From Syntrophorhabdales bacterium (lineage in GTDB: Bacteria > Desulfobacterota > Syntrophorhabdia > Syntrophorhabdales > WCHB1-27): 64,000 nucleotides of DNA. This document shows positions 7 to 39,792 of this stretch, one piece after another. How positions within the stretch are numbered: the stretch's first letter is position 1; every line of letters starts with the position of its first letter. The stretch spans positions 4,780 to 68,779 of the forward strand of contig DATKNH010000013.1 in NCBI GenBank assembly GCA_035541455.1, in the 5' to 3' direction. The notes under the pieces were generated by a model that saw only the letters and a list, made by a program, of their open reading frames with translations, made no database searches and was not told where the DNA came from. Position numbers and translations under genes: made by a program.

Positions 7-537
7 TTATCCGTACTGCGCTACAAACTGGTCCCACTTGCCCTGTGCCCTTAAAATAAACTCGGCCAGTTCACGGGCTACTCCTCTACCTCCGCCGGCC
101 TTTGTAACGAGGTCAGCGATTGCTCTGGCCTCGGGCGAGCCGTCTGCCGGAGCCACAGAGAAGAAGACCCGCTTCATGATCCCGAGGTCGATCATCTCAT
201 CGCCCACGTAGCATATGTCGTCGTCCTTCAGCCCCGACTGCTTCTCGAACTCGTCGAGCCTTGCCATCTTTGCTGAACTCCCCCAGAGCATATCAGGTGG
301 AACACCGTAAATTGTTGCCATCTGTTCCACGTCTCTCGCGACCTTGCTTGTCAGGAAGGAAACGCCGACGCCGGAATCCATGAGTGCCTTGATACCGATG
401 CGGTCATGGAGGCAGAACGCTTCAGACTTCACGCCGTCCTGTGTGTAAAAGAGCGTGTTGTCTGTGAGTATGCCATGAATATCGAAGATAACGAACTTCA
501 CTTTTTTTGCTTTTTCGGTTGCATCTGCCTGGCTCAT
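7..537 (-). CDS. HAD-superfamily IIIA (KdsC-like) phosphatase-fold protein; candidate PpcD-like (delta) subunit of a phenylphosphate-type carboxylase
   Basis: 176-aa ORF. KdsC-like layout with motif I region KFVIFDIHGILTDN and motif IV-like YVGDEMIDLGIMK. Tandem paralog of 551-1108. Same strand and downstream of a UbiD-family gene. Confidence 0.7.
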   Translation of the reverse strand: MSQADATEKAKKVKFVIFDIHGILTDNTLFYTQDGVKSEAFCLHDRIGIKALMDSGVGVSFLTSKVARDVEQMATIYGVPPDMLWGSSAKMARLDEFEKQSGLKDDDICYVGDEMIDLGIMKRVFFSVAPADGSPEARAIADLVTKAGGGRGVARELAEFILRAQGKWDQFVAQYG

Positions 538-550
538 AGACTCACCCCCC

Positions 551-1108
551 TTATTTGTAACCCATCTTTGTTACCTTCTCCACCCACTCATCCCACTTGC
601 CCATTGACCGCAGGATGAATTCACATACTTCCCTTATCGGGCCTTTGCCCCCTGGCGCTGCGGTCACGTAGTGGGCCAACTCTTTCACTTCTGGAATGGC
701 ATCGGCCACGGCCACCGCAAATCCTGCTTTTTTCATCAGCGGGATATCCGTCAACTCGCAACCGATGTAGCCGATCTGCTCGTCTGTCAGATTCAAATCT
801 TTCTTCAACTCTTCCAGTTTGGCCGCTTTGTCCTTGACTGCAAAATACATCTTGTCCAGCTTCAGCTCCTTCGCCCGATACAATCCTTCCCCATCAATAG
901 AGGTGGAATCGAGGAAAACAGGCTTGATGTCATTTGCCATCATCGACAGATCGCCAAAGCCGTCCATGTGCCAGAAGGCGTAGCGCCTGTTTCCTTCCAC
1001 ATCGCAGAAGACCGTATTAGTCGTCAGTACGCCGTGAATATCATGGGCAAACAGCTTTATCTTCTTTGCTCTCTCTTTCGCAGCGTTCATATCCTTTTCC
1101 GATGCCAT
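551..1108 (-). CDS. HAD-superfamily IIIA (KdsC-like) phosphatase-fold protein, second PpcD-like paralog
   Basis: 185-aa ORF. Motif I region KLFAHDIHGVLTTN, motif IV-like YIGCELTDIPLMK, C-terminal EFILRSMGKWDEW parallel to AEFILRAQGKWDQF in the neighbour. Confidence 0.7.
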   Translation of the reverse strand: MASEKDMNAAKERAKKIKLFAHDIHGVLTTNTVFCDVEGNRRYAFWHMDGFGDLSMMANDIKPVFLDSTSIDGEGLYRAKELKLDKMYFAVKDKAAKLEELKKDLNLTDEQIGYIGCELTDIPLMKKAGFAVAVADAIPEVKELAHYVTAAPGGKGPIREVCEFILRSMGKWDEWVEKVTKMGYK

Positions 1109-1248
1109 CGCTTCTCCCCCTTAGTCTATTAATGGGGCTCGCGTCGCCCCCTCCATCGGCAAAGCCGCCGGAGCCTCCCCTTCTCGCTCGCGGCGCTCGC
1201 TAGATAGATTTCGCGGCCGATCCGCAAGCGGGTCCGGGCTCGCGCTAC

Positions 1249-2667
1249 TCAATCTATTCCATACTCAGCCCATCTGGCCTTCACTTTAGAAAGCATGCCT
1301 TCCGAGAGTTTGATCTCTGAAGGTTTGACCTTCCAATCAAACGGTATGGTGGCGTCCATGATGATGCGTGACGTGATGAACTTGTTTTCGTCGGCGCCGA
1401 TTGCCGGGTCTAGAGGAGTTGACCTTCCCCTGTTGATGATCTGTGTGCCGCGCGAAGGGCTGTAACGCGTCCCCAGCGCCCACCAGACTCTCGGGAGATC
1501 GTCTGCGTCAATATCGTCATCTACGATAATAACGCATTTAATGCCGTAGGTGCCCGTATTACTCGCGATGACCGCAGCCCCTACCTGATCCGCGTGACCG
1601 GGGTACATCTGCTGGACCGAGACCACTACAATGAAACGTCCTGAGCCTTCCGGCAATGTGTAAACCGATTTTATGCCGGGGATCTCCATCTTGGTAAGAT
1701 CGGTCCACAGGGATGCATTACGCGTGAAGGCGTAGAGCATGTGCTGATCACCTACGGGCCTGCCCACGCTTGTCTCCCACAGAATGGGATTGTTTCTGAA
1801 ATAGACGCGCTGTACGTTAAGTGCCGGCTTTGGGATAGGCTTTATCAGCTCCTCCGTGTAGTACCCGGTGTATTCACCGAAGGGCCCTTCGTTACGGAGC
1901 TGCTGCGGGTCGATCTCTCCTTCCAGAACTATCTCCGCAGCAGCGGGAATGGGCAGGCCTGTGAGCTGCCCCTTCACCACTTCAACGGGCTCACCGCGCA
2001 GAGAGCTCACAACATCGTACCCGCTCTTGGCCTTGACGGTCGCAGCGCTCGCAAAGATATGGAGGGGATCCCCGCCTATGATGGCACACGCCGGCATCTT
2101 CTTGCCGGCCTTGCCATACTTCTTCATGATCCGGTCTCCGGTTTTCCCTTTGAGTATCTGGACTCCTATAGTCTTGTTGTCGAGGATGCCCATACGATAG
2201 GTGCCCAGGTTTATGTTCCCCGTCTCCGGGTCCTGCAGAACCATGAATACTGCGGTGCCGAAGTAGCGTCCTCCGTCCAGCTCATAGAATTTCGGAGAAG
2301 GAAAGGCAAACGTGTCCACTTTATCAGCCTCGACGATGTTTTCGAAGATAGGGCCGTCTTTCACTTCCTTCGCCCGAAGCACCTCTTTGACTGCGATATT
2401 CACCCATTCCTTTGTGAGCTGCACCATGGAGAGGTCCGGGTTTTTGCCGAGTATCATCGCCAATCTCTGCGTTGTACCGAACGCACCGGTCAGGACGGGA
2501 CTCTTATATCCCTTCACGTTCTCAAATAGAAGTGCAGGGCCACTTTTCTCTTCAACGATCTTTGCGACATGAGAGATTTCCAGATCCCAATCAACCTCGG
2601 CCTTGACTCTCTTCAGTTGACCTACCTTCTCACACTGTGCCACGAAATCCCGAAGATCCATAGACAC
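1249..2667 (-). CDS. UbiD-family (prFMN-dependent) (de)carboxylase; phenylphosphate carboxylase alpha/beta-like
   Basis: 472-aa ORF. Length and N-terminus (DLRDFVAQCEKVGQLKRVKAEVDWDLEISHV...LFENVKGY) are typical of the UbiD family. Clustered with pps-like and PpcD-like genes. Confidence 0.85.
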   Translation of the reverse strand: MSMDLRDFVAQCEKVGQLKRVKAEVDWDLEISHVAKIVEEKSGPALLFENVKGYKSPVLTGAFGTTQRLAMILGKNPDLSMVQLTKEWVNIAVKEVLRAKEVKDGPIFENIVEADKVDTFAFPSPKFYELDGGRYFGTAVFMVLQDPETGNINLGTYRMGILDNKTIGVQILKGKTGDRIMKKYGKAGKKMPACAIIGGDPLHIFASAATVKAKSGYDVVSSLRGEPVEVVKGQLTGLPIPAAAEIVLEGEIDPQQLRNEGPFGEYTGYYTEELIKPIPKPALNVQRVYFRNNPILWETSVGRPVGDQHMLYAFTRNASLWTDLTKMEIPGIKSVYTLPEGSGRFIVVVSVQQMYPGHADQVGAAVIASNTGTYGIKCVIIVDDDIDADDLPRVWWALGTRYSPSRGTQIINRGRSTPLDPAIGADENKFITSRIIMDATIPFDWKVKPSEIKLSEGMLSKVKARWAEYGID

Positions 2668-2675
2668 CCCCTTTT

Positions 2676-2800
2676 CAGTGAACAGTTAATAGCGAGCAGT
2701 TGAAAGGAACAAACATCCGGTAAACAGTAAATGTATCAGCCGGATCAAGAGAAACGCTGCAGTGTTTACGGCTGCTCACTGCTTACCGCTCACTATTCCA
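2676..2800 (-). repeat. Long imperfect inverted repeat forming a structured 5' leader of the UbiD operon
   Basis: AGTGAACAGTTAATAGCGAGCAG (2677-2699) matches the reverse complement of 2772-2794 at 17/23 positions. An inner pair CCGGTAAACAG (2717-2727) / CAGTGTTTACGG (2760-2771) is also present. Lies between the predicted TSS (about 2802) and the start codon at 2667. Confidence 0.55.
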
Positions 2801-2808
2801 TTTTACCC

Positions 2809-2871
2809 ATTCTATGATATCTGCTTGACATGTCAATTTATTTGTTCTTATATTCTATAAGTAAAACTTAT
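2809..2871 (-). promoter_or_regulatory. Sigma70-type promoter plus LysR-type T-N11-A box for the UbiD/HAD operon; overlaps the divergent LysR promoter and start codon
   Basis: Minus strand reads TTGACA (2836-2831), 16-nt spacer, TAGAAT (2814-2809). The palindrome ATAAG-TAAAA-CTTAT (2857-2871) is centred about -62. The 12-bp perfect palindrome TTGACATGTCAA (2825-2836) also gives a plus-strand -35, followed after 17 nt by TTATAT, for the LysR gene. Confidence 0.6.
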
Positions 2872-3757
2872 GCTTTCCTATTCCCTTGGCTCTCTCATTG
2901 TCTTTTCCAGAGTGGTTCAACACAGAAGTTTCTCCAAGGCGGCGGATGCCCTCCTTATGACGCAGCCGGGAGTTTCGAATCACGTTGCGCAGCTGGAGGC
3001 GCAGACGGGCCTGAAGCTCCTGAAGAGGGACAGGGGAAAATTTGAGCTTACCAAGGAAGGCAGGGTGATCTATCGTTACGCGCAGAAACTGGAAAAGATG
3101 GCAGAGGATCTGGAGAATACTCTGCGCACGTTGCACAAAGAACTGCGCCCTTATCTTCGCATAGGGACTGTGCCTACGTATTCGAGGATCATGATGCCCT
3201 ACGTGCTGGGAGATTTTCAGAAGACGTATCCAAACATAAAGATAAGGCTGGACGTGGGCTCTTCCAATGAAATGAAAAAAAGCCTCGTCGCCGGCCAGAA
3301 CGATATCGTTATCGCAGCCACGCTTCACGTCTCGAAGAAGATGCAAGCCTTCCCGGTCCTGAGGGAGGAACTCGTATTGATAACGGCCAATGGTCACCCT
3401 CTGGCACGCAGGAGGACAGTCTCTCTATCCGACATTAAAGCCTACCCTTTGATTATCAGGGAGGAGGGTTCTGCAACCCGGGATGTGGTGCTTGCAGCCT
3501 TTTCACGAATTGGCATTGCTCCTTCCGTGCTGATCGAAGCAAAAAGTACTGAATTCATCAAGGAGTGGGTAGCGCAAGAAAAGGGTGTTTCCATACTTAT
3601 CAGGCGTGCCGTGAACGAAGAAGAGGATAAGTCCATCACCCGTATCTCTTTACGCGACCCCCTTTTCCTGGAGGTTTCTGTCCTCTTCCTCAAGGCGAGG
3701 CGCTATGATCCTTCAATCCAGAAATTCGTCAGCCACGTGAGAGAACTGCGGTTGTAA
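2870..3757 (+). CDS. LysR-family transcriptional regulator
   Basis: 295-aa ORF with N-terminal wHTH (VVQHRSFSKAADALLMTQPGVSNHVAQLE) and a C-terminal substrate-binding-like domain. Divergent from the UbiD operon. Confidence 0.9.
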   Translation: MLSYSLGSLIVFSRVVQHRSFSKAADALLMTQPGVSNHVAQLEAQTGLKLLKRDRGKFELTKEGRVIYRYAQKLEKMAEDLENTLRTLHKELRPYLRIGTVPTYSRIMMPYVLGDFQKTYPNIKIRLDVGSSNEMKKSLVAGQNDIVIAATLHVSKKMQAFPVLREELVLITANGHPLARRRTVSLSDIKAYPLIIREEGSATRDVVLAAFSRIGIAPSVLIEAKSTEFIKEWVAQEKGVSILIRRAVNEEEDKSITRISLRDPLFLEVSVLFLKARRYDPSIQKFVSHVRELRL

Positions 3758-3771
3758 GCGTCCGATGGAGT

Positions 3772-4191
3772 CTACGTTCTAGTTTTGCATTTCTTGATGA
3801 TTTTTTCTGGAAGCTCGCTGCAGACTTCCTGAACAATCTTTATCTCATCCTCCGTCAGCTTATCCCAGTGAATACCTGCGGTGACTACAGCATTGCGGTT
3901 GAGTCTGCGGGCGAGTTCCTCGGCAAGCGGTTTGACCAGCAGGTCTTCCTTGTGGCCCGCAAATGTGAAGACTGAGCTGGTAGCCGATGTCTCTTCAGGG
4001 TCTTTGAGGCTCTGGCGCGGCTGGGCCATTCCGACGGCGCCTACGTGAGGGTATGTGCCGCCCCATACGGCCACCAGGATGTCCGGACCCATCTCGTAGA
4101 TGATTGCGCTTACCTTGAACTTCCCCTTTCTTACGGATACTGCGCCAGATTTTACAGAAGATGAAAGACCTGTGCCGGGAGCGGCTGCCAC
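3772..4191 (-). CDS. Small conserved soluble protein; possible LpdD-like prenylated-flavin chaperone (tentative)
   Basis: 139-aa ORF (GTG start 1 nt after the upstream stop). Core VAVWGGTYPHVGAVGMAQP. Assignment rests on my recollection of the LpdD family plus UbiD context, so it is weak. Confidence 0.35.
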   Translation of the reverse strand: MAAAPGTGLSSSVKSGAVSVRKGKFKVSAIIYEMGPDILVAVWGGTYPHVGAVGMAQPRQSLKDPEETSATSSVFTFAGHKEDLLVKPLAEELARRLNRNAVVTAGIHWDKLTEDEIKIVQEVCSELPEKIIKKCKTRT

Positions 4192-4192
4192 C

Positions 4193-5425
4193 TTACAGTG
4201 TCCCCGCCCGTGAGGCTCTTATCATGCCGTCAAGAATATCGACCGCCCGCTCTGCGAAAGCAGGTTCGCTTATGTGTACGTCGAGTTCTTCCACGGGTAT
4301 GCGTGGATCAAGGAGCGATTTGAGCTTTTCTGTAAAGATGCGATCAACAGCAGGATCAAAGAGTGCCATACCTTGCTTGTCTGCATCCGACCAGCCTTTC
4401 GTGGGGATGAGCACCCGAGCGGGACCTCTACCTTTATTCAGCTTCTCTGCCACTATGCGAGCAAACTTTTCCATTTCAGGAGCTTCCATGCGCACACAGA
4501 ACCGAGTGTCATGGCCGTGAATTCTTCTTCCCTTCAATTCGTCAGGCATAGGATAATACGGGCTGAATACGGCGTTGTCAAGCCCACCCGGCGCGAAGAT
4601 AAGCGGGATGCCCATTCTGCCCGCGGTCTCAAGCCGCTCCGGTCCTATTCCTTTGCAGTACCCTCCGAACATCTCATCGGCTATCTCATGAGGATTGAAA
4701 TCGAGCGCACCTGCAATGAGGCCTTCTGCGATCATCTCTTCCATCGCCATACCGCCGCAACCATTCGCATGAAAACCGATCATATCGTATCCTCGCGCAT
4801 CCAGAAGCGGCTCTGCGAGCACTGCGCAGCCGGAATTGATCCCGTACGCAGTAACGCCGACCATAGGCCGTTCTGTTCTGATCGTGCTCTCCTTTTCCAT
4901 CATGCCGCAGACGGCATAGGCTGCCTGGGCGAGGATATGGCGCATGAAATCGTTAAACCCCAGAAGGTCTGCTACCGAGTGAAACATCAGGATATCTTTT
5001 GTCCCGACATACTCTCTGACGTCCCGTGACGCGACCGTAGACACGGCCACCTTGGGGAAACCGAAGGGCAGCGACCGCATGATTGAAGTTACTATAGCGG
5101 TTCCCGTACCGCCTCCGAGACCTATGACGCCGTCTATCTGACCTCTTTGTTGAAGGCGCGTTGCGATGATGGCCCCGCCCGTTTGAACGGTCCTGACTGC
5201 ATTTGACCTGGTCTGCTTTGTGATGCTCGCAGCCAGATCTGAGCCGGCTGCAGATGCAAGATCGTCACGCGTAAGGTCGGGAGGCGCCTGGGGTGGGCCG
5301 AGGGTTCCCACGTCCATGAGCATTGTCTTGACGCCCCGCCCCTCGGCGCACTCCTTGATGTAGGCTGCCTCCCGCCCCTTGGTGTCCAGTGTGGCAATAA
5401 CAAGAAGTCTTTTTCGTGAACTCAT
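4193..5425 (-). CDS. UPF0261 / Tm-1-like ATP-binding domain protein
   Basis: 410-aa ORF. N-terminus RLLVIATLDTKGREAAYIKECAEGRGVKTMLMDVGTLGPP matches the characteristic UPF0261 start (xxGTxDTKGxE...vDvg). Confidence 0.7.
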   Translation of the reverse strand: MSSRKRLLVIATLDTKGREAAYIKECAEGRGVKTMLMDVGTLGPPQAPPDLTRDDLASAAGSDLAASITKQTRSNAVRTVQTGGAIIATRLQQRGQIDGVIGLGGGTGTAIVTSIMRSLPFGFPKVAVSTVASRDVREYVGTKDILMFHSVADLLGFNDFMRHILAQAAYAVCGMMEKESTIRTERPMVGVTAYGINSGCAVLAEPLLDARGYDMIGFHANGCGGMAMEEMIAEGLIAGALDFNPHEIADEMFGGYCKGIGPERLETAGRMGIPLIFAPGGLDNAVFSPYYPMPDELKGRRIHGHDTRFCVRMEAPEMEKFARIVAEKLNKGRGPARVLIPTKGWSDADKQGMALFDPAVDRIFTEKLKSLLDPRIPVEELDVHISEPAFAERAVDILDGMIRASRAGTL

Positions 5426-5468
5426 GCAAGCCTGATAGAATTCTCCGCTCGGTTTACTGCCCCTCTTC

Positions 5469-6620
5469 CTAGACGCTTTGGTCTGGCGGTGGGGTTCCGG
5501 GCGGTGTAGGTAGCGTCAATGGCCATCTCAGAAAAAAGGCGTTGTGGGCAATAAAGCCCGGTGCCAAAATACAAAGGTTGAGATAGATGATGAGTATGTT
5601 TATGTCTGCAGGAAGCTTGGCAGCTGCTACACTGTCAGCCACTGGTCCCAATATCACATTGCAGATGGCTATCCAGATGGCGCTGATCACGATCACTATT
5701 ACGAAGGCCGCAACCGCCCTTGCCGCTCCCGTAAGCTTCGTGATCCCCCAGAACTGAAAATGCCAGGAGTAAAAGAGCGACCAGGTGATTATAGAAGAAG
5801 CCACGGCCCCAAAGGAGAACGAGGGGCTGACACCAAGTGCCAGGCTCCCCTGCCAGCAAATCAACGCGAGAATGTGCGAAAGGATGGTCTGGCCTATAGC
5901 TGCTCCGGGATGCCCCCATTTCCTGAACGGCCAGCCCTGCGTTACAAACACCGGGCAGAACACGAAAAACCAGGCGATTGCCCATACAATGTATCCGGTA
6001 AGCCAGTTCACATTGAGAGGACCTTTATGGTCCATCGGGGCATTGGCAACAGGTGTTCCGTCAAGATTGGTCAGGAAATTCCAGACTAGGATGGTAACGA
6101 CCATGACAACAATGAACCCTGCCACCATAGTGCCCCAGGGATGGAGTCGTCCTTTAAAGGGCCAGGTGTTCCAGTTCTTGCCGTAGAGGAGCGTACACCA
6201 GAACCCTATTGCGCCAAACCAGAGATAGAGAGGCCCTATCGGCCACTGCGGATAGACGAACCGCATGAAAAGCAAGATGACAAACGTGAATATGCCCCAC
6301 AGGATGGTCATTTTGACTCCCACTGCGAAGCGAGACATTGCAGGCGTCCAGTTACCTGCAGGAGGCGCGCACGGAAAGCAATCCCCTATAAGTACCAGGT
6401 GCCCTTCCGCGATGAGCATGATAAGAATGGCAGGCAGAAGTTTCAGTACAAGCAATGCCGGCGGCACGGCGTACACAAAAAGAATTGTGCCAAGGATGGT
6501 GAGACCGATGAATTGGATGAGGCCACCCAATCTCCCTTCGGGACCAACACCGATCTTCGATTTCGTATCGTCTCCAAGTACCTCCCCCGCGCCAATTGTT
6601 GCCTCTCTTTCATTCCCCAT
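5469..6620 (-). CDS. Polytopic Trp-rich integral membrane protein, unknown function
   Basis: About 10 hydrophobic segments. Start chosen at MGNEREAT (6620), preceded by GGGGAGAGGAG. The 30-aa basic extension in the ORF track has no RBS. Confidence 0.6.
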   Translation of the reverse strand: MGNEREATIGAGEVLGDDTKSKIGVGPEGRLGGLIQFIGLTILGTILFVYAVPPALLVLKLLPAILIMLIAEGHLVLIGDCFPCAPPAGNWTPAMSRFAVGVKMTILWGIFTFVILLFMRFVYPQWPIGPLYLWFGAIGFWCTLLYGKNWNTWPFKGRLHPWGTMVAGFIVVMVVTILVWNFLTNLDGTPVANAPMDHKGPLNVNWLTGYIVWAIAWFFVFCPVFVTQGWPFRKWGHPGAAIGQTILSHILALICWQGSLALGVSPSFSFGAVASSIITWSLFYSWHFQFWGITKLTGAARAVAAFVIVIVISAIWIAICNVILGPVADSVAAAKLPADINILIIYLNLCILAPGFIAHNAFFLRWPLTLPTPPGTPPPDQSV

Positions 6621-6777
6621 AATCTCCTCTCCCCTTTTTTGTGCACTTGTTCGATGCCTTGCACTATGCGCCGCTTGCCGTTCCCCTCGCGGTCGCTTGC
6701 ATCGCCCCATCTCTACCGATCAGCCGCTTCGAAACCTGCCGCTCTCTTGATCATCCGATGCGATTGAGCATGCGAAC

Positions 6778-7842
6778 CTATTTTATCCTCACCCCCGTCA
6801 GTAACTGGCCTAAGATGCGGTCCATGGCATCTTTCTTCTGTTCAGTTTTTGGCGCAACCTCCTTCTTGCTCCAGACGGATTCAGGTCTCACCTGGAGAAT
6901 GATGATATTTTCGGGGAACTGAAAATCGGCATCGATCCCGAACTCGATGTCGTAAGGTTTTCCATAATAGTTCTCGATCAATTTTCCGACGCGGGCAAGC
7001 TCTTTCAATTCAAAGTGTGTGAGACAGGGAACACACCTCATCTCCTCAGGCACTTCTGTCTGCAGGATGTCGCTCCCATTCTCCCGGTAAACGCATTGGG
7101 TCTCTTTGCTGCCTATGGTTGTCTTTATGGTGTCGAGGGTGATCTTGTCGACAAGGTATGTGTCTGGCGTTACCATGCCGCTGACTACAGCCTCTCCGAG
7201 ACCGCAACTCGCATCAATCGAAATTTTTGAAAGATCGCCGTTCACGGGGTTAATGGTAAAGATTATCCCCGATACTCTGGAGTTGACCATCTTAGGGATA
7301 CCGACGCCTATATTGAAGAGGAACGGCATTCCCTTGTTCATGCGGTACATGATAGCTTCGACATTGTAGGCACTGGCCCAGCATCTCTTGACGTAGTCGA
7401 TAAGGTCCTTTTCTCCGCGTATATTGAGATATGTCTCCATCTGGCCCGGCATGGATACGGCGCCACTCGATCTGACTGCCACAGGACAGACGCCCGTCTT
7501 GCTCCTTTCGCAAAGCTTCTTGTAATTGGCGAGTATATCTTCTTCTATGTCGGATGGTACCTGCGCGTTTTCAATTAAGCGAATGCCTGTTTCGCTTGCC
7601 TGCTTTGCGGTTTCAAATGTCACCTGACCAAGCTCAGTTAGCAGTTTCTCCAGCTCTGATTTTATTCCCGTATCAACAATAAATTTCTCGTTGGCATAAA
7701 TGGTGATGCAAAATCCCGGAGCGACCGGTATGCCCGCTTTGATCATTTCTCCGAGATTGGCATTTTTCTTACCGACGAGTGGAAAGTCGTTACCGTCCAT
7801 TTCGTCGTACCAGATGGTGAGCCTTTTTTCTTTTTCTGTCAT
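6778..7842 (-). CDS. PEP-utilising enzyme, N-terminal ATP-binding (PPDK_N) module; phenylphosphate synthase beta (PpsB)-like
   Basis: FPLVGKKNANLGEMIKAGIPVAPGF resembles the PEP synthase/PPDK nucleotide-binding N-terminus. About 354 aa, with no His-swivel domain. Start at MTEKEK has a GGGGG RBS; the longer start would lie inside a repeat element. Confidence 0.8.
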   Translation of the reverse strand: MTEKEKRLTIWYDEMDGNDFPLVGKKNANLGEMIKAGIPVAPGFCITIYANEKFIVDTGIKSELEKLLTELGQVTFETAKQASETGIRLIENAQVPSDIEEDILANYKKLCERSKTGVCPVAVRSSGAVSMPGQMETYLNIRGEKDLIDYVKRCWASAYNVEAIMYRMNKGMPFLFNIGVGIPKMVNSRVSGIIFTINPVNGDLSKISIDASCGLGEAVVSGMVTPDTYLVDKITLDTIKTTIGSKETQCVYRENGSDILQTEVPEEMRCVPCLTHFELKELARVGKLIENYYGKPYDIEFGIDADFQFPENIIILQVRPESVWSKKEVAPKTEQKKDAMDRILGQLLTGVRIK

Positions 7843-7861
7843 CTTGTTACCCCCGGACTCT

Positions 7862-7953
7862 GAGGCTAAGGCCAAGGTCGAGGTTATGAAATAATTGCAT
7901 GATGCGAAGCGCTGATCTTTTCGTTTTTCTCAACCTCAACCTTAGCCTCAACC
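7862..7953. repeat. Intercistronic hairpin repeat, copy E1 (AAGGNN / NNCCTT word family)
   Basis: Left arm GAGGCTAAGGCCAAGGTCGAGGTT (7862-7885) pairs with right arm AACCTCAACCTTAGCCTCAACC (7932-7953). Shares TTTCGTTTTT (7919-7928) and ACCTCAACCT (7933-7942) with copy E2. Confidence 0.75.
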
Positions 7954-7962
7954 TGTTCTAAC

Positions 7963-9804
7963 CTATTTTGCTCTTTCCAGTATCTGCACTAACCCGGTGT
8001 CGCCGTTGATCCGGAGCAGATCACCCGTTTTTATCAGCTGTGTGCCCTTGCCTGTCCCGACAACGGTCGGCAATCCGTATTCCCTGCAGACAATGGCAGC
8101 GTGGCACATAGGGCCACCCACGTCGGTCACGGCCCCTGCAATCTTGACGAACGCAGGTGCCCAACTGGGCGACGTGGTGGTCGCCACCAGTATCTCTCCC
8201 TCTTGAAGATCAGCAAGCTGGTCCACGGTCTTCAGAACCCGGGCCTTTCCTTCGACCACACCGGATGAGCCTGCAGAGCCCTGGATCTCATTCTGCGCTC
8301 CTCCTTCTGCGGGGCCGGCGAGCCACTTCTGGAGGGCATCGTTGGTGACTCCCCAGAGGACAATGGTGAAGGGCTCTGTCACAACGTCTGGTGGCACGCC
8401 AAGCGCCGGCGGCGGGGTCCACTGTTTGAACTTTTCGTAAACACCCTTTCTCCAGGCAATCTCTTTCGGCCAGTAGGAAGGTCCTCTCGCCCTCACCCCC
8501 GTTGCCCAGGAGGTGACATGATCCCAGAGCGCCTGTTTGATCTCATCACGCCTCAGGAACCAGATGTCCTCGTCGGCATTTTCGATGAATCCCGCATTCT
8601 GAAGGATCTGGCCCACCTGGCGGACCTTCCCCCAGAAAAGGCTGTGAAACCAGTGCTCCACGTAGAAATTATGATCCTCAGCGTAAGGCAACACCAACCG
8701 AGCTATAGCCAGGCCTTGATCGAATGCCTCTCTGTCAGCATCGGTCTTTATCAGCTTCCTGTACTCACCCGCGATCCGATCACGCTCCTTGAGAATCTGG
8801 GCCGTCGGTCTGCCGATCTCCTTGCCTGCTTTAAGGGTTTTAATGTTAGTCCGGATATTATCGAAGGGAACGTTAAGATTATCATTCCAGCTGATATGTG
8901 TGTGATACCAGCCTGTGCCTGTAGACATGTAGAACCACGGGTAGCGCGCTTTTTCCAGTTCCTTGAGCCACTCCTTGCCCACAGGATGCTTCTCCAGTTC
9001 CTTCATGAGCTCATCGGCTTTCAATGGTTTGGCGAATATGTCTTCGATACCGACTTCGATAGCGAGTTTCGCCAGCCTTATCAGTTCAGCATCGGGCTTG
9101 AAAAGGATAGGATCAAAACCGGCCGACATCTTGACCAGCGTTGATATCGGTACATCTGGAAAAATCTGGTTAGCCGTGCCGAAGAAAGTCACCTGCGCAG
9201 CGTAACACAGGTTCAGGAATTCAAAATGATACTGCCAGCACAGCAGGCCAAGGTCGATCAGCTCATCGTATCTTCTGAGGAGCTCGTAGCCGCTCCCCTT
9301 TCCAAGCCCGTCCTTGATGACGCTGATATCCTCCATCACGGGAAGGTCGGTAAAGTTCATTGATTCGAGTTTATCGATCGTGGCGGTCATCTTCTTCTTC
9401 CAGTTTTCATACAACCTGTCCCAGTTCTGGAAATAATACCCTGCGCGCTCCATAAAATGCGGCACCCGCTTTCCCACTTCCTCAGGGTCGGGAACGCCGA
9501 CAGGGCTGATGTACACATACCCGTTAACGATCCTGTGGTCGATGCCGAGGGCGGGCGGGATGATGTAATGGCGGGTGTTATATTGCGAAAGAGCCAGAGA
9601 CCACGCTTCATCCCAGATGAGATCGAAAGGATAATGAGGCTCCGGGTAATGGAGGCCATCATAGAACCATATCTGGCTGCTCTCAAATTTGGCACGTTCA
9701 GGATCTTCTTTGGAGAAGATATACTGATAAGGGTACAGCTTCTCCCAGCCTTCCGTTCCCGGAATCATTGGTACATCGTGTGGGTCCGTAAATGTTTTCG
9801 CCAT
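7963..9804 (-). CDS. PEP-utilising enzyme with C-terminal phospho-histidine swivel domain; phenylphosphate synthase alpha (PpsA)-like
   Basis: 613-aa ORF. C-terminus GEILVATTTSPSWAPAFVKIAGAVTDVGGPMCHAAIVCREYGLPTVVGTG is the PEP-utiliser mobile domain with the catalytic His. Large non-PPDK N-terminal part, as in split phenol-phosphorylating enzymes. Confidence 0.8.
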   Translation of the reverse strand: MAKTFTDPHDVPMIPGTEGWEKLYPYQYIFSKEDPERAKFESSQIWFYDGLHYPEPHYPFDLIWDEAWSLALSQYNTRHYIIPPALGIDHRIVNGYVYISPVGVPDPEEVGKRVPHFMERAGYYFQNWDRLYENWKKKMTATIDKLESMNFTDLPVMEDISVIKDGLGKGSGYELLRRYDELIDLGLLCWQYHFEFLNLCYAAQVTFFGTANQIFPDVPISTLVKMSAGFDPILFKPDAELIRLAKLAIEVGIEDIFAKPLKADELMKELEKHPVGKEWLKELEKARYPWFYMSTGTGWYHTHISWNDNLNVPFDNIRTNIKTLKAGKEIGRPTAQILKERDRIAGEYRKLIKTDADREAFDQGLAIARLVLPYAEDHNFYVEHWFHSLFWGKVRQVGQILQNAGFIENADEDIWFLRRDEIKQALWDHVTSWATGVRARGPSYWPKEIAWRKGVYEKFKQWTPPPALGVPPDVVTEPFTIVLWGVTNDALQKWLAGPAEGGAQNEIQGSAGSSGVVEGKARVLKTVDQLADLQEGEILVATTTSPSWAPAFVKIAGAVTDVGGPMCHAAIVCREYGLPTVVGTGKGTQLIKTGDLLRINGDTGLVQILERAK

Positions 9805-9838
9805 AAATTCCTCCTCCCCTTTTTTTTAGTGGCGCTAA

Positions 9839-10486
9839 CTAGAGTCTGAACCATCGCGGTTCATCGAACCGCTCGGTACAACGCAGCACACGGCTCGCGT
9901 AGTTCAATACATACTTACCCTTCAGCTTTAGGTTGAGTTTTCTAAACTCCTCGTTATTCAGGAGGCGCCCGATGTCCACCGGATCTTTGAAAGTGAACTC
10001 GCTGACGATTTCGCTGACTCCACCAAGAACAACGTTCCATCCGCCTGTCACTTCCATGTAATCTATTTTTTGGATAGTGGGCAGGTATTCCTTGACGATG
10101 AAGTCCGCGTACTCTTTTTTTACTCCCGGCTTCAGGTCGTAGTACTGATTAAATTTCCACACACCTTTCTGAATAGTGTATGTTTCTCGCTTTACCCTGC
10201 CGGTCGGCTCGAGGACGGTGGTCCTGTAGCTGTAGACAAGCGATTTAACATTTAGTGAAAGCTGTTTGAATCGTTCACTCGTAATAACGCGGGAAAGCAG
10301 TTCGAGGTCGGTTGCCAGGTTGACGCCTATCACCCTTGGGCCAAAACCGACCTCAACGTAATAGCCTCCGACCGGCGTGAGCCCTGTAGCTGCTAACTCC
10401 TTCAGGTAGGTACCGGCGATAAAATTCGCGTATTCGTCCTCTTTCCCCGGAATGATGTCATAGGCTGTAGTGAACAGAACAGACAT
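9839..10486 (-). CDS. Internally duplicated protein of unknown function (two alpha+beta-barrel/NIPSNAP-like halves, tentative), first gene of the pps-like operon
   Basis: 215 aa. Half 1 is YDIIPGKEDEYANFIAGTYLKE...ERFKQLSLNVKSLVYSYRTTVLEPTGR. Half 2 is YYDLKPGVKKEYADFIVKEYLPT...EEFRKLNLKLKGKYVLNYASRVLRCTER. AAGGAGG RBS. Confidence 0.5.
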   Translation of the reverse strand: MSVLFTTAYDIIPGKEDEYANFIAGTYLKELAATGLTPVGGYYVEVGFGPRVIGVNLATDLELLSRVITSERFKQLSLNVKSLVYSYRTTVLEPTGRVKRETYTIQKGVWKFNQYYDLKPGVKKEYADFIVKEYLPTIQKIDYMEVTGGWNVVLGGVSEIVSEFTFKDPVDIGRLLNNEEFRKLNLKLKGKYVLNYASRVLRCTERFDEPRWFRL

Positions 10487-10604: not shown

Positions 10605-10667
10605 ATTGTATAATGAGCAGTGAATATGTCAACTAATTTATTTTTATGCTATATAAGAAAAACTTAT
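10605..10667 (-). promoter_or_regulatory. Sigma70-type promoter plus LysR-type T-N11-A box for the pps-like operon
   Basis: Minus strand reads TTGACA (10632-10627), 16-nt spacer, TACAAT (10610-10605). The palindrome ATAAG-AAAAA-CTTAT (10653-10667) lies exactly 20 nt from the -35, the same geometry as at 2809-2871. Confidence 0.6.
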
Positions 10668-17339: not shown

Positions 17340-20300
17340 ATGGATACCGATAACGTGACTCTCCCCAGAATTCCCGTGTCCACGTACAGGCTGAACTTCA
17401 ATAACGGGTTTACTTTCTCGGATGCGACAAAGATCCTCCCCTATATGGACGAACTGGGGATCAGCGACGTCTACGCATCTCCCTGCTTTGCAGCTCGTAA
17501 AGGAACTGTTGTCGGTTATGATGTTGTCGATCCTACGAGGCTCAACCTGGAGATCGGCACGGAGAAGGATTACAACCGATTTACAAACGAGCTGCAGAAA
17601 CGCAAGATGGGGCAGATTCTGGACATCGTACCGAACCATATGTACATAGAGCATGAAGACAATGGCTGGTGGATGGATATCCTTGAGAATGGCCCTGCCT
17701 CTCCGTATGCAGCCTTTTTTGATATAGACTGGCACCCCGTCAAGAGAGAGCTCGAGAATAAAGTGTTGATCCCGATTCTGGGCGATCAGTACGGGACGGT
17801 GCTGGAGCGCCGGGAACTGAAACTGATATTTGAGAAGGGTACTTTTTCTCTAACCTACTACGACCACAGGCTTCCGATATTGCCTGAAACGTACATGTAC
17901 GTACTGAGACACGGCATAGAGAAGCTGGAATCGCTCTTGCCCGTCGATGACGCGTCACTGGTGGAGCTTCTAAGCATTTTGACAGCCCTCAGCTGTCTGC
18001 CTTCATACACGGAAAGAGAGCAGGTAAAGCTCACCGAGCGAAGCCGTGAGAAAGAGATCATAAAGAAACGGTTATACAAGCTTTATAGAGAAAACCGGAT
18101 AATGCGGGACCTCGTCGACGAGAACCTTCGCACCTTCAACGGAAACGAGAAAGAGCCCCACAGTCTTGATCTTCTCGATGACCTGCTGAGCAGGCAGATC
18201 TGGCGGCTCTCCTATTGGCGCGTCGCCACGGAAGAGATCAACTACCGGAGGTTCTTTGATATCAACAGCCTTGCCGCCATTAAGATGGAAAACCCGGTGG
18301 TTTTCCAGAAGACCCATGAACTGCTCCTCAAGCTCATTGGTGAAGGCAAGATAACCGGACTGAGAGTTGACCACCCTGACGGTCTCTACAATCCTTCCGA
18401 ATACATGAAAAGATTGCAGCGCGAGTCGTTTCTCCGTGTGCGCCTTTCGGATGCGGAAAGAGAAAAAAGGAAGAAGCCCGGAGTCACGGACGAAACCGAT
18501 CTGGAATCGCAACTGCTGAAGGATTATGCGGAGATGATCGTCCTGGATCCGCAGTTCAAGCCTTTTTATATCGTAGGAGAAAAGATTCTCATAAAAGGTG
18601 AGAAGCTGCCCGAAGACTGGCCTGTCTTCAGCAGCATCGGCTACCAGTTCCTGAATCCGGTGAACGGAATATTTGTGGATACGGCAAACAGCAAAATCTT
18701 TGAGCGGCTGTATGAGAGATTTACCGTATTGAAGATGAGCTATCAGGATCTGGTCTACGAAAAGAAACGGCTGATTATGCTCGTCAGCTTGTCTGGTGAA
18801 ATCAATACACTCGCCCATTATCTCAACCGCCTCTCGGAAAAAAACAGGCACACGAGGGATTTCACACTCAACAGCCTGAGGGGCGCGATCATGGAGACCA
18901 TTGCCTGTTTTCCAGTCTACAGGACCTACATAACACAGGAGGGCGTGAGCGAAAGAGACCGGCGCTATGTTGAGCAGGCGATAGCAAAAGCAAAACGGAA
19001 GAACCCAACCTTGAGCCAGAGCGTCTTTGATTATCTCAAACGTGTCTTATTGATCGATTGTCCAGACGATTTTCAGGAATCGGACAAGATGGAATGGGTC
19101 GAATTTACAATGCGACTTCAGCAGATCACAGGGCCGGTGATGGCCAAGGGCGTAGAAGATACTGTCTTCTATATCTATAACCGGCTCATTTCCCTTAATG
19201 AGGTGGGCGGGAACCCTGAGGCGTTCGGCACTTCACTGGAGGCCTTTCACGGACAGAATTTGGAAAGGGCGAGATCGAGACCCCATTCTTTTCTCACTAC
19301 GTCAACCCACGACACGAAACGAAGTGAAGATGTCAGAGCACGAATCAATGTGCTTTCTGAAATTCCAGGCGAGTGGCAAAGATGTCTTGGAAGGTGGGCC
19401 AGGCTAAACGTGAAGAAGAAACCGATCATCGATGGGCAACAGGTACCCGACCGTAACGAGGAATACCTGCTGTATCAGACGTTAGTGGGCTCTTGGCCCG
19501 GTCCCGGTCACCGCATGGATGATGTGAAATACGAAGATTTCAAGAGAAGGATCAGGGAGTACATGGTAAAAGCGATCAGAGAGGCCAAGATTAACAGCAG
19601 CTGGATTAACCCCGACACGCCTTATGAAGAGGCGCTCACCAATTTTATAGATTCGATCCTGCAACGGTCAGAGCGCGATCCATTCATCGAAGACTTTACT
19701 CTTTTCCAAAACAAGATCTCTTATTTCGGCATGTTTAACTCTCTGTCACAGACCCTCCTTAAGATCACCTCGCCGGGCGTACCCGATTTTTATCAAGGCT
19801 GCGAGTTGTGGGATTTCAGTCTGGTAGACCCTGACAATCGAAGGCCGGTTGACTTTACCGCAAGGCAGGAAATGCTCAACAGGTTGAAGAAAGGGATGAA
19901 GCGTGCGGGCGGGATGTTCACGGACTTCGCTGGCCGCCTCTTTGCCTCCTGGGCAGACGGCGCAATTAAACTCTACGTCATCTATTCAGCCCTTACCTAT
20001 CGAAAGGAACATTATCCACTTTTCAGGCATGGAGCCTATGCGTCGCTCGCTCCAGAAGGGGTTCTTAAGGAACTCGTGTGCGCCTTTGCCAGGGTCGGAG
20101 ATGATAATGTCGCAATCACGGCGGTTCCGAGGTTTTTGACACGCATACTAAGGAGCGTGGACGAGAAGCCTTTCGGCAATGAGCTATGGCAAGACACAAC
20201 AATTCCGATCCCTGACGAGATCCAACCGAAGGCGTATTACAACATCTTCACGGGCGAGACCATCACCGCAGTTGAACGGGATGGCGCGATGCATCTGCGC

Positions 20301-38397: not shown

Positions 38398-39792
38398 TTA
38401 GACCAGGTCCTCCGGATTTGGAATAAACTTCTTCAGATCTATCCGTTTCATTACATCCTCAGGTATAGCTGCCACAGGGGGCAGATCCTTGCGGAACGGC
38501 TTTGCGGTCGCGTCTATGCCCACTTTTGTCACGACAGCCTCTTGCGCTGACGACAGATCAAGGTCCGTACCGAGCACGCCCGGCAGGATCATTACGTCCC
38601 TGTCTGCCTGCACCCTTGTGGCGAGCGCCCAGGTCATTTGGGCACCATTGTCCAGGTCGATGTCGGTATCAACGCAGACAACGTACTTGAGGTACAGGTC
38701 ATTGGCAAATGCCGCAAGGATAGCCTGTTTTGGCTGCCCCGCATGTTTCTTATCGATTTGAATAAACCCGTACCACCAACCTGCTGCCGCGATGAATTTG
38801 AATTTCTTTACGTCGGGTACGGCCTCTTTAATTTTGCGGTTCATAAAGGAATGTTGCGGGATACGGCCCATCAGCATACCCTTGCTCGGCCAGGCTCCCA
38901 TGTCGTGCACGATCGGGTTCTTCCTATGGGTTATCGCTGTGATCTTTACAGGGTGGCGCATGGCCACCTGGTGGTACTTGGTGAAATCACCCCACGGGCC
39001 TTCCTGCTCCCGGACACCCGGGGGGATGACGCCTTCTATGATGATCTCGGCACGTGCGGGCACAAGTACGTCGCTTGTCTCGCATCTCACCACCTCAAGG
39101 GGCTCTCCCATCAGGCTTCCCGCAATGTCAAATTCTGAAGGTGGATGGCTCACACGGCTCTGAAAAGCGGTAGCCCACGCAGGATGAAGCCCTATGGCAA
39201 ATGCGATAGGCATCGGCTCGTTGCGTTCCATGTAATCATTATAGATGTGCCAGAAATGACGACCGGGCGTGATGTGAGTTACACCGAGGTGCGGCTTTTT
39301 TACCATGAAGCGGTAGTGAGAGCAATGGGGAGCATTTATCTTTCTATCCATCACTATGCCCACCGCCCTTGTGAGATAAGGCGCTTCGCCCTTGTGATGA
39401 GTGATAAAAGGGAAACGCGTCATATCCGCCTTTTTGCCCGTGAGTACAACATCCCTGCAAGGAGCATCTTCTTTCTTGATCTCCTTTGCGGGATACTTAT
39501 TCAGCCGGATTGCCTCCTCTTCCTTCTCGCCGTAAAAGTCTTCAACTCTTTGCGGAGGGATACCAAGGGCGAGGCTGTACTTGGTGGCGCTGGTCTCGGT
39601 ATTACATACGACAGGCGTGCTGTACCCTTTCACCTTCTCGAAGAGAACCATGGGGTATTTGCCCATAAGGTCCAGTTTCTTTACTATTGCGGTGATCTCA
39701 TACTTGGGATCAACCTCCCGCGTGACCCTCACGAACTCCTGCGGCAGCTCTCTTTCGCAATCCGCCATGAACGTCCTTAAATCTCTCGCCAT
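38398..39792 (-). CDS. UbiD-family (prFMN-dependent) decarboxylase, second distant paralog
   Basis: About 464 aa from MARDLRTFMADCE (AGGAGG RBS). UbiD-like N-terminus ...YPMVLFEKVKGY and family-typical length. Confidence 0.85.
   Translation of the reverse strand: MARDLRTFMADCERELPQEFVRVTREVDPKYEITAIVKKLDLMGKYPMVLFEKVKGYSTPVVCNTETSATKYSLALGIPPQRVEDFYGEKEEEAIRLNKYPAKEIKKEDAPCRDVVLTGKKADMTRFPFITHHKGEAPYLTRAVGIVMDRKINAPHCSHYRFMVKKPHLGVTHITPGRHFWHIYNDYMERNEPMPIAFAIGLHPAWATAFQSRVSHPPSEFDIAGSLMGEPLEVVRCETSDVLVPARAEIIIEGVIPPGVREQEGPWGDFTKYHQVAMRHPVKITAITHRKNPIVHDMGAWPSKGMLMGRIPQHSFMNRKIKEAVPDVKKFKFIAAAGWWYGFIQIDKKHAGQPKQAILAAFANDLYLKYVVCVDTDIDLDNGAQMTWALATRVQADRDVMILPGVLGTDLDLSSAQEAVVTKVGIDATAKPFRKDLPPVAAIPEDVMKRIDLKKFIPNPEDLV

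What the first reader, a model, noticed from the sequence alone, without database searches (positions are those of the whole stretch)
2809..2871. Two operons share an identical promoter plus LysR-box geometry, making a self-contained regulon
The sequence upstream of the UbiD/HAD operon has the same architecture on the minus strand as the region at 10605-10667 upstream of the pps-like operon. Both have TTGACA, a 16-nt spacer and TA(G/C)AAT. Both have a 15-bp palindrome ATAAG-N5-CTTAT (which contains T-N11-A) placed exactly 20 nt upstream of the -35, centred near -62. The intervening stretch shares TTTATTT. LysR-type activators classically bind a T-N11-A site near -65. The only LysR gene in the window (2870-3757) lies between the two operons. 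Its ATG (2870) sits inside the first box. Its own candidate -35 is the other half of the perfect palindrome TTGACATGTCAA (2825-2836). That arrangement would give back-to-back promoters and built-in autoregulation.
Basis: seen in the sequence. Interest (0 to 1): 0.65.

Follow-up and report, generated by a model that had tools for sequence, protein, structure and literature searches.

The report
Shared LysR operator-promoter for anaerobic phenol genes
Two operons for the first steps of oxygen-free phenol breakdown in a Syntrophorhabdus-like bacterium carry the same conserved promoter module, which looks like a binding site for the LysR-type regulator encoded between them; this is a sound regulon prediction of an ordinary kind.

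Summary
A 41-nt module lies upstream of the ppcB operon (2831-2871) and of the p215-ppsAB operon (10627-10667). On the minus strand it reads ATAAG-N5-CTTAT, 5 nt, ATAArAnnAAATnAn, TTGACA, then 16 nt to TAGAAT/TACAAT. The two copies are 33/41 identical.

A weight matrix trained only on related genomes scores these two sites 67 and 65 bits; the next site in the 64 kb scores below 0.

The window comes from a Syntrophorhabdales-like genome. The module is kept upstream of ppcB (43 unique sequences) and of pps (28 unique sequences). Flanking DNA is randomised: boxes about 1.6 bits per position, flanks 0.2-0.3. The module follows the pps genes where they have moved.

A pattern scan of a whole metagenome collection gave 60 matches. 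Most sit at these two promoter types.

The LysR start codon lies inside box 1 in all ppcB-type copies. Its own TTGACA-18-TATAcT promoter is conserved only there.

Binding and transcription starts remain untested. "Self-contained" is doubtful, because relatives carry the module before other genes. This is a new member of a known kind.

The parts
2857..2871 (-). Box 1 of the ppcB/lysR copy (proposed LysR recognition site): ATAAGTTTTACTTAT on the minus strand, a dyad ATAAG-N5-CTTAT centred about -62 from the predicted ppcB start. It contains the A and T of the lysR ATG.
   Evidence: Information content is 1.59 bits/position over 47 unique orthologous copies.
2837..2851 (-). Box 2 (proposed activation site): ATAAGAACAAATAAA, centred about -42, one base from the -35. 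It overlaps the lysR -10 on the other strand.
   Evidence: 1.60 bits/position.
2831..2836 (-). -35 hexamer TTGACA of the ppcB operon promoter.
   Evidence: near-invariant in orthologues.
2809..2814 (-). -10 hexamer TAGAAT of the ppcB operon promoter, 16-nt spacer. Predicted transcription start near 2802.
   Evidence: TAGAAT or TACAAT in 22 of 43 unique orthologous copies, and related hexamers in most others.
2825..2830 (+). -35 hexamer TTGACA of the lysR promoter, forming the palindrome TTGACATGTCAA with the ppcB -35.
   Evidence: TTGACA/TTGACT in 37 of 43 ppcB-type copies and 0 of 28 pps-type copies.
2849..2854 (+). -10 hexamer TATATT of the lysR promoter, 18-nt spacer (TATACT in most orthologues). 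The ATG follows 15 nt later with no Shine-Dalgarno sequence, so the leader is about 8-10 nt.
   Evidence: TATACT/TATAAT/TATATT in 35 of 43 ppcB-type copies. The two linker columns outside box 2 are conserved only in this class.
2870..3757 (+). lysR: a 295-aa LysR-type regulator, the only one in the window.
   Evidence: Pfam HTH_1 and LysR_substrate both above cutoff. No NCBIfam equivalog reaches its cutoff. tblastn finds no second copy.
7..2661 (-). ppcB operon as far as the window edge: ppcB (1249-2661; the start is more likely the ATG at 2661 than the GTG at 2667) and two KdsC/ppcD-like HAD genes (551-1108, 7-537). In relatives two further UbiD paralogues follow.
10653..10667 (-). Box 1 of the pps copy: ATAAGTTTTTCTTAT, centred about -62.
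   Evidence: 1.59 bits/position over 28 unique copies; upstream flank 0.20.
10633..10647 (-). Box 2 of the pps copy: ATAAAAATAAATTAG, abutting the -35.
   Evidence: 1.61 bits/position.
10605..10632 (-). pps operon promoter: TTGACA (10632-10627), 16 nt, TACAAT (10610-10605). Predicted start near 10598.
3772..10486 (-). pps operon (inferred single unit): p215 (9839-10486, no family), ppsA-like (7963-9804), ppsB-like (6778-7875), membrane protein (5469-6710), UPF0261 (4193-5425), PAC_bac (3772-4191).
   Evidence: Gene order is conserved in about 12 related loci.

Best explanation
The two sites are copies of one cis-regulatory module: a sigma-70-type promoter (TTGACA, 16 nt, TAsAAT) preceded by a two-part operator. 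I propose that a tetramer of the adjacent LysR-type regulator occupies this operator. Box 1 (ATAAG-N5-CTTAT, about -62) would be the high-affinity recognition site. Box 2 (ATAArAnnAAATnAn, about -42, touching the -35) would be the activation site.

With an inducer from the phenol pathway (phenol, phenylphosphate or 4-hydroxybenzoate; which one is unknown), the regulator would activate both operons. One encodes phenylphosphate carboxylase (ppcB plus HAD genes) and the other phenylphosphate synthase (p215-ppsAB and following genes). The two halves of phenol activation would then be made together.

At the ppcB copy the same operator covers the regulator's own back-to-back promoter, its predicted start site and its start codon, so the regulator would also repress itself.

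Shown here: the sequences, their geometry, their specificity, their conservation and their fidelity to these two operons. Inferred: that this LysR is the binding protein, the transcription starts, the direction of regulation and the inducer.
For: Geometry and rarity are shown.

A weight matrix trained without the window scores the two sites 67.3 and 65.3 bits. The next independent site scores -0.9. No site reaches 25 bits in about 0.5 Mb of unrelated loci, L031-L064.

Loci found through the LysR protein alone, independent of any DNA motif, show the module at the ppcB/lysR junction in 25 of 31 loci. They also show it upstream of p215/pps wherever that promoter is present. This includes loci not used for training (L011, L012) and rearranged loci (L025, L026).

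The footprint is clear: boxes about 1.6 bits/position and the -35 1.8-1.9, against flanks of 0.2-0.3.

The metagenome-wide pattern scan gave 60 matches. 48 lie upstream of ppcB or of p215/ppsA; of the 28 ppcB ones, 25 have lysR divergent with its ATG in the box and 3 are cut at the contig end. Five more are cut too short to show the downstream gene, but lysR or the flanking MFS gene or the module's own sequence identifies them as the same promoters. One match is clearly chance.

The protein has both LysR-family domains. Positions of -62 and -42, 20 bp apart, and an operator overlapping the divergent regulator promoter are the textbook LysR-family arrangement. This rests on established knowledge (Maddocks and Oyston 2008; BenM sites 1 and 2), with the RBS/ABS concept as summarised in PMC11739112.

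The lysR promoter hexamers are conserved only in the class where lysR is present.
Against: There are no binding, footprint or expression data, and the transcription starts are only predicted.

Conservation of box 1 at the ppcB copy is confounded by the lysR start codon and promoter. The pps copies are free of this confound.

The metagenome sequences were selected by a pattern that fixes about 20 positions, which inflates their information content at those columns. The protein-anchored genome loci are not affected.

S. aromaticivorans and some relatives carry a second LysR paralogue nearby (L013, L019, L020, L024), so the binder could be either copy in those genomes.

Box 2 is A-rich and could act partly as an UP element.
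Confidence: 0.7

Rival explanations
1. The module is a real, conserved operator-promoter, but it is bound by a different transcription factor encoded elsewhere. Alternatively it is bound by the second LysR paralogue seen in some relatives. In either case the adjacent LysR controls something else.
For: Nothing here shows binding. A second lysR copy sits near the cluster in L013, L019, L020 and L024. The module also occurs upstream of genes with no lysR next to them (L066, L086, L023).
Against: The lysR ATG lies inside box 1 in 43 unique sequences, and lysR is divergent from ppcB in 25 of the 28 ppcB-type metagenome matches; the other three are cut at the contig end. The dyad form, the positions and the two-site layout are those expected of LysR-family proteins. 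The window contains only one LysR. The paralogue lacks the module at its own start (L020).
Confidence: 0.15
2. Only the promoters are functional. The A/T-rich stretch upstream of the -35 is an UP element contacted by the RNA polymerase alpha subunit. The palindrome at the ppcB copy is conserved only because it carries the lysR start codon and start site. No dedicated regulator is involved.
For: Box 2 is A-rich and lies at -36 to -50, where proximal UP subsites lie (established knowledge). Box 1 overlaps the lysR ATG.
Against: The pps copies have no gene or promoter over box 1. They nevertheless keep ATAA-N4-T-N-CTTAT at 1.59 bits/position, next to an upstream flank at 0.20. Non-A positions inside box 2 (T22, T32) are invariant. 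Both boxes begin with ATAA. The dyad symmetry is unexplained by an UP element.
Confidence: 0.08
3. The similarity is chance, or only the trace of a recent local duplication with no selective constraint.
For: The sequence is A/T-rich and both copies lie within 8 kb of each other.
Against: Expected counts are 0.05 and 0.02 against 2 observed. Both copies are kept in lineages whose proteins have diverged to 50-60% identity, while linkers, spacers and flanks have randomised. The mismatches between the two window copies fall in the low-information columns.
Confidence: 0.02

Closest known systems
BenM/CatM, CbnR and ClcR-type LysR activators of aerobic aromatic catabolism (Acinetobacter, Cupriavidus, Pseudomonas)
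   Same: The regulator gene is divergent from a catabolic operon. A dyad of the T-N11-A type lies near -64 (ATAC-N7-GTAT in BenM; here ATAA-N7-TTAT). A second, less symmetrical site lies about two helical turns downstream next to the -35. The operator overlaps the regulator's own promoter. One regulator serves more than one operon. The layout comparison rests on established knowledge. The window protein matches BenM and CatM chains only distantly (E 7e-19 and 5e-14).
   Different: This is a different LysR subfamily: no NCBIfam equivalog reaches its cutoff, and the best solved matches are an uncharacterised P. aeruginosa regulator, CbbR and CysB. The half-site sequence differs. The pathway is anaerobic (ATP-dependent phosphorylation and carboxylation of phenol) in a syntrophic lineage. 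The lysR start codon is embedded in the operator and lacks a Shine-Dalgarno sequence.
PheR control of the pps-ppc cluster in Aromatoleum aromaticum EbN1
   Same: It controls the same enzymes (phenylphosphate synthase and carboxylase), and the regulator gene flanks the catabolic cluster (PMC10715001).
   Different: PheR is a sigma-54-dependent one-component activator with a V4R phenol-binding domain, and it acts on a sigma-54 promoter. Here the promoters are sigma-70-type and have no -24/-12 element. The neighbouring regulator is LysR-type, and no sigma-54 activator domain was found among the cluster genes. The regulatory solution is therefore non-homologous.
CcpC of Bacillus subtilis (LysR family; ATAA-N7-TTAT box centred near -66 at citB)
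   Same: The dyad has the same ATAA-N7-TTAT form and a similar position. This is recalled from established knowledge and was not tested here.
   Different: CcpC is only a remote relative (E 3.5e-11, N-terminal 130 residues only). It is a repressor of TCA-branch genes responding to citrate, and there is no functional relation.

Membership tests
LysR-type transcriptional regulator (protein family) | N-terminal winged-helix HTH_1 domain | tested here: met
   PF00126, 64.9 bits (cutoff 26.6), residues 8-65.
LysR-type transcriptional regulator (protein family) | C-terminal LysR substrate (effector) binding domain, total length about 300 aa | tested here: met
   PF03466, 148.5 bits (cutoff 28), residues 91-292; 295 aa in total.
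LysR-type transcriptional regulator (protein family) | Membership of a named, functionally defined subfamily (equivalog) | tested here: not met
   The best NCBIfam hit is NF040786 (selenium-metabolism-associated) at 188 bits, below its cutoff of 250. All other models are also below their cutoffs.
Classical LysR-controlled promoter (recognition and activation site layout) | Dyad of T-N11-A type centred about -65 | tested here: met
   ATAAG-N5-CTTAT is centred at -62 from the predicted starts at both promoters and is conserved. The position is relative to predicted, not mapped, starts.
Classical LysR-controlled promoter (recognition and activation site layout) | Second, weaker site adjoining or overlapping the -35 | tested here: met
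   Box 2 at 2837-2851 and 10633-10647, 20 bp from box 1, with 1.6 bits/position.
Classical LysR-controlled promoter (recognition and activation site layout) | Divergent regulator gene whose promoter overlaps the operator (autoregulation) | tested here: met
   lysR TTGACA-18-TATATT at 2825-2854 and the ATG at 2870 lie within or next to the boxes. The hexamers are conserved only in this class. Autoregulation itself is inferred.
Classical LysR-controlled promoter (recognition and activation site layout) | Specific binding by the regulator and an effector-dependent change of footprint or activation | not testable with these tools
   Needs EMSA or footprinting and reporter assays.
Sigma-70-type promoter | -35 and -10 hexamers close to consensus with a 16-18 nt spacer | tested here: met
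   Three promoters at 11/12 matches. The hexamers are conserved across orthologues.
Sigma-70-type promoter | Mapped transcription start 5-9 nt downstream of the -10 | not testable with these tools
   No transcript data are available.
Phenylphosphate carboxylase / synthase gene cluster (anaerobic phenol activation) | UbiD-family beta subunit (ppcB) | tested here: met
   TIGR02724, 677.6 bits (cutoff 469), full length.
Phenylphosphate carboxylase / synthase gene cluster (anaerobic phenol activation) | Delta subunit (ppcD) equivalog | tested here: not met
   The two HAD proteins score 110 and 115 bits on TIGR02726, below its cutoff of 282. They score equally well on KdsC. They are KdsC/ppcD-like, not equivalogs.
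Phenylphosphate carboxylase / synthase gene cluster (anaerobic phenol activation) | Split PEP-synthase-like pair (ppsA with the mobile His domain, ppsB with the ATP-grasp domain) | tested here: met
   PF00391 is present in the 613-aa protein, which scores 887 bits on NF006152 (cutoff 723). PF01326 is present in the 365-aa protein. Enzyme specificity for phenol was not tested.
Sigma-54 / PheR-type control of pps-ppc | -24/-12 (GG-N10-GC) promoter and an adjacent sigma-54 activator | tested here: not met
   The best matches to TGGCAC-N5-TTGCA have 3-5 mismatches, and the one match that keeps the GG..GC pair has 5 mismatches. No Sigma54_activat domain was found among the cluster proteins.

The most novel reading that the evidence does not exclude
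This LysR subfamily is the dedicated sensor for anaerobic phenol activation in Syntrophorhabdales. It would be a sigma-70/LysR solution that is not homologous to the sigma-54/PheR system of denitrifiers. It would respond to phenol, phenylphosphate or 4-hydroxybenzoate. In some lineages its regulon would reach beyond pps and ppc to a CoA ligase, a PEP carboxykinase and UPF0261 genes. The regulator's start codon lies inside its own operator on a nearly leaderless mRNA, and this would give very tight self-limitation. If so, it provides a compact, portable operator-promoter-sensor set from an uncultivable syntroph.
Probability: 0.5. Interest if true: 0.45.

Novelty: new member of a known kind. Interest (0 to 1): 0.35.

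Why it matters
Syntrophorhabdus-like bacteria carry out phenol degradation in methanogenic reactors and sediments, but they grow only in co-culture and have no genetic system. How they switch on the costly, ATP-consuming phenol activation is therefore unknown. The only characterised regulator of these enzymes, PheR of Aromatoleum, works through sigma-54 (PMC10715001).

The module defined here gives a precise, testable operator, a candidate sensor protein and a sequence signature. In a whole metagenome collection that signature marks almost only these promoters. It can be used to chart the regulon in assembled genomes and to build a reporter in a tractable host.

It does not change what is known about LysR-family mechanisms.

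Tried and rejected
- **Rfam** at gathering thresholds found nothing in the window.
- **Structured leaders.** Folding the predicted 5' leaders of ppcB (148 nt, z = -1.45) and p215 (119 nt, z = +0.95) gave no evidence of a structured leader or riboswitch.
- **Sigma-54 promoter.** A -24/-12 promoter was looked for and not found.
- **Literature.** Searches for phenylphosphate + LysR and for Syntrophorhabdus + LysR returned nothing relevant. Papers in subscription journals, such as the S. aromaticivorans genome paper, are not in the library.
- **More sites in the window.** A third site was sought with full, 35-nt and box-1-only matrices. Nothing credible appeared; the best other 35-nt hit scores 11.7 bits, inside a gene at 18555-18589.
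- **Metagenome matches at other places.** Six of the 60 metagenome matches score 16-42 bits. L076, L116 and L119 lie next to a primase-like gene. L079 and L108 have no open reading frame. L091 scores 16 bits. I treat these as chance or unrelated.
- **Genome-wide count.** A count of the motif in this genome, or in S. aromaticivorans UI, was not possible.

Full report
**1. What is in the sequence**

The stated features are all present at the stated coordinates.

On the minus strand the ppcB-side region reads ATAAGTTTTACTTAT (2871-2857), AGAAT, ATAAGAACAAATAAA (2851-2837), T, TTGACA (2836-2831), 16 nt, TAGAAT (2814-2809).

The pps-side region reads ATAAGTTTTTCTTAT (10667-10653), ATAGC, ATAAAAATAAATTAG (10647-10633), TTGACA (10632-10627), 16 nt, TACAAT (10610-10605).

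Without gaps the two are 33/41 identical over box 1 to the -35, and 44/63 to the end of the -10.

ATAAG-N5-CTTAT occurs nowhere else in the 64 kb (expected 0.05). The box plus 20 nt plus TTGACA, with two mismatches allowed, matches only these two places (expected 0.02).

The generic promoter scan ranks the two minus-strand promoters and a plus-strand TTGACA-18-TATATT (2825-2854) at 11 of 12 matches. Only one other site in the first 14 kb scores this high, and it is intragenic.

**2. What the genes are**

- 1249-2667(-) is a full-length phenylphosphate carboxylase beta subunit (TIGR02724, 678 bits, cutoff 469).
- Two KdsC/ppcD-like HAD proteins follow it.
- 7963-9804(-) and 6778-7875(-) are the split PEP-synthase-like pair typical of phenylphosphate synthase.
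- They are preceded by a 215-aa protein of no family.
- They are followed by a membrane protein, a UPF0261 protein and a PAC_bac protein.
- 2870-3757(+) has both LysR-family domains. It is the only LysR homologue in the window.

The two operons therefore encode the two steps that turn phenol into 4-hydroxybenzoate without oxygen.

**3. Where it comes from, and conservation**

A search of one genome per species with the LysR protein returned 31 orthologous loci. All come from Syntrophorhabdales-like genomes at 49-84% identity, including S. aromaticivorans UI (L013).

Gene order is kept. lysR is divergent from ppcB-HAD-HAD, with two more UbiD paralogues beyond. The p215-ppsA-ppsB...UPF0261-PAC operon converges on lysR.

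These loci were found through the protein, so they are an unbiased sample for the DNA. In 25 of the 31 loci the module is present with the lysR ATG in the same register (23 loci) or shifted 2 nt (L027, L030). In L024 it also lies upstream of ppcB but about 180 nt from lysR, and the remaining loci are paralogous contexts. Upstream of p215 the same module is present wherever that promoter lies inside the locus.

A weight matrix built from these relatives, with the window left out, scores the window sites 67.3 and 65.3 bits. The next independent position scores -0.9.

Across all 64 loci (1.0 Mb), every hit of at least 25 bits lies in the Syntrophorhabdales-like loci. None lies in the roughly 0.5 Mb of unrelated loci.

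Three observations argue for function rather than shared ancestry alone:
- (i) L011 and L012, not used for training, carry the module upstream of ppsA.
- (ii) In L025 and L026 the pps genes have moved to the plus strand downstream of lysR, and the module has moved with them in the right orientation.
- (iii) In L014 and L018, p215-ppsA lie downstream of the ppc genes on the same strand and have no module of their own.

**4. Footprint**

Over 28 unique pps-type promoters the information content per position is:

| Region | Bits per position |
|---|---|
| Box 1 | 1.59 |
| Box 2 | 1.61 |
| -35 | 1.92 |
| -10 | 1.19 |
| 40 nt upstream | 0.20 |
| Spacer | 0.51 |
| Downstream | 0.27 |

Over the ppcB-type copies the boxes give 1.59 and 1.60.

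The invariant columns are ATAA....T.CTTAT in box 1 and ATAA.A..AAAT.A in box 2. The T-rich centre of box 1 keeps the same orientation relative to the promoter in both classes.

The metagenome-derived sequences were selected with a pattern that fixes about 20 of these columns, so their contribution is inflated. The protein-anchored loci show the same picture.

**5. The lysR side**

The ATG at 2870 is the first start codon after an in-frame stop. The next methionine lies inside the helix-turn-helix domain.

No Shine-Dalgarno sequence precedes the ATG, whereas ppcB and p215 have AAGGGGG and AAGGAGG.

The plus-strand TTGACA is present in 37 of 43 unique ppcB-type sequences and in none of the 28 pps-type sequences. 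A TATAcT-like -10 at an 18-nt spacing is present in 35 of 43. The two linker columns belonging to that -10 carry 1.68 and 1.63 bits in the ppcB class, against 0.38 and 1.0 in the pps class.

This class-specific conservation is what the back-to-back promoter idea predicts. It places the lysR start about 8-10 nt before the ATG, inside box 1. Occupancy of the operator should therefore block lysR transcription (inferred).

**6. Specificity in nature**

One scan of the metagenome collection with ATN8CTTATN5ATAARN3AAHTDANTTGAC gave 60 matches in 59 stretches. Classified by tblastn and ORF inspection, they break down as follows:
- 28 lie upstream of ppcB. In 25 of them lysR is divergent with its ATG in the box; in the other 3 the contig ends at the site.
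- 20 lie upstream of p215/ppsA, or of ppsA alone.
- 5 are cut too short to show the downstream gene. Two of these show lysR and one the flanking MFS gene; the other two are identical or near-identical to known pps-type modules, so all five look like the same promoters.
- 1 lies directly upstream of a UPF0261 gene (L086).
- 1 lies upstream of a GTP-type PEP carboxykinase gene (L066; Pfam).
- 5 score 41-42 bits and lie in unrelated or non-coding contexts.
- 1 scores 16 bits and is a chance hit.

Four stretches are identical or nearly identical to the window (contigs Ga0335070_ and Ga0335071_).

In the complete chromosome OY762209.1, a further copy (51.8 bits) precedes an AMP-binding CoA-ligase gene. 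This is plausibly the next pathway step, though that assignment is inferred. A weaker copy (37.8 bits) precedes a methyltransferase.

The regulon is thus centred on pps and ppc but is not strictly limited to them in all lineages. For the window's own genome only these 64 kb could be examined.

**7. Mechanism and comparison**

The layout matches the established arrangement for LysR-family activators (general knowledge; RBS/ABS concept summarised in PMC11739112):
- a dyad of the T-N11-A class at about -62;
- a second, less symmetrical site 20 bp downstream touching the -35;
- a divergent regulator gene overlapped by the operator.

It resembles BenM/CatM at benA and catB most closely.

The protein belongs to no named subfamily and is only distantly related to solved LysR proteins.

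The one characterised regulator of pps-ppc genes, PheR of Aromatoleum aromaticum, is sigma-54-dependent (PMC10715001). No sigma-54 promoter or activator is present here. This is a different, non-homologous way of controlling the same enzymes.

No paper in the searchable library links a LysR protein to these genes.

**8. Verdict**

Binding, start sites, the sign of regulation and the inducer remain to be shown.

This is a well-founded regulon prediction and a new member of a known kind of system. It is useful to people working on anaerobic aromatic degradation, but it would not surprise them.

Noticed in passing
window 2655-2670 (-): The listed ppcB ORF starts at GTG 2667, but that GTG lies inside the Shine-Dalgarno sequence AAGGGGGUG. 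The ATG at 2661 (MDLRDF...) follows it at the right distance and is where orthologues start, so ppcB is probably 1249-2661.
   Followed up: partly
window 2662-2802 (-); L001-L004 upstream of ppcB: The predicted ppcB leader is about 140 nt in the window and its closest relatives, but only about 20-25 nt in most other orthologues. The extra DNA is made of repeated GTAAGCAGTGAGCAG-like motifs. It does not fold significantly better than shuffles (z = -1.45), and its origin and role are unexplained.
   Followed up: partly
window 9839-10486 (-): A 215-aa protein with no Pfam or NCBIfam family is always the first gene of the pps operon in relatives. Its only hits are sub-threshold, NIPSNAP to the first half and DUF4286 to the second. 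It may stand in for the stimulating third subunit of phenylphosphate synthase.
   Followed up: partly
window 3772-5425 (-); L086 1440-2791: A UPF0261 protein and a PAC_bac (proteasome-assembly-chaperone-like) protein close the pps operon in most relatives. In one metagenome contig the same operator-promoter module sits directly upstream of the UPF0261 gene, so these uncharacterised proteins appear to belong functionally to phenol activation.
   Followed up: partly
window 3757-3772: lysR and the pps operon converge with only 14 nt between their stop codons, and no terminator-like site was called there. Read-through from the induced pps operon would be antisense to lysR, which could be a further brake on the regulator.
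   Followed up: no
L066 1173-1213; L023 14971-15011 and 12777-12817; L024 14648-14688: In relatives the module also precedes a GTP-type PEP carboxykinase gene, an AMP-binding CoA-ligase gene, a methyltransferase gene (weaker match, divergent from what looks by eye like an IclR-type regulator; not scanned) and a UPF0261 paralogue (weak match).
   Followed up: partly
L013 13499-14380; L019 8437-9318; L020 4431-5312; L024 13558-14442: S. aromaticivorans UI and several relatives carry a second lysR paralogue (52-58% identical to the window protein) a few kb away, next to a UPF0261 paralogue. In the one copy inspected (L020) its start region lacks the module, and the PWM scan found no module of 25 bits or more at the start of the others. 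Its target is unknown.
   Followed up: no
window 38398-39816 (-): A second 472-aa UbiD-family gene, 26% identical to ppcB, lies about 36 kb away. No module precedes it.
   Followed up: no
window 5469-6710 (-): A 413-aa multi-pass membrane protein with no family hit lies inside the pps operon. It is conserved in only some relatives (L001, L002, L004, L024, L026). Its listed N-terminus (MGRCKRPRGERQ...) looks over-extended, and a start at the internal MGNERE is more likely.
   Followed up: no
window 4553-4581 (-): A TTGACA-17-TATTAT promoter-like site with 11/12 matches lies inside the UPF0261 gene. It is probably a chance match.
   Followed up: no
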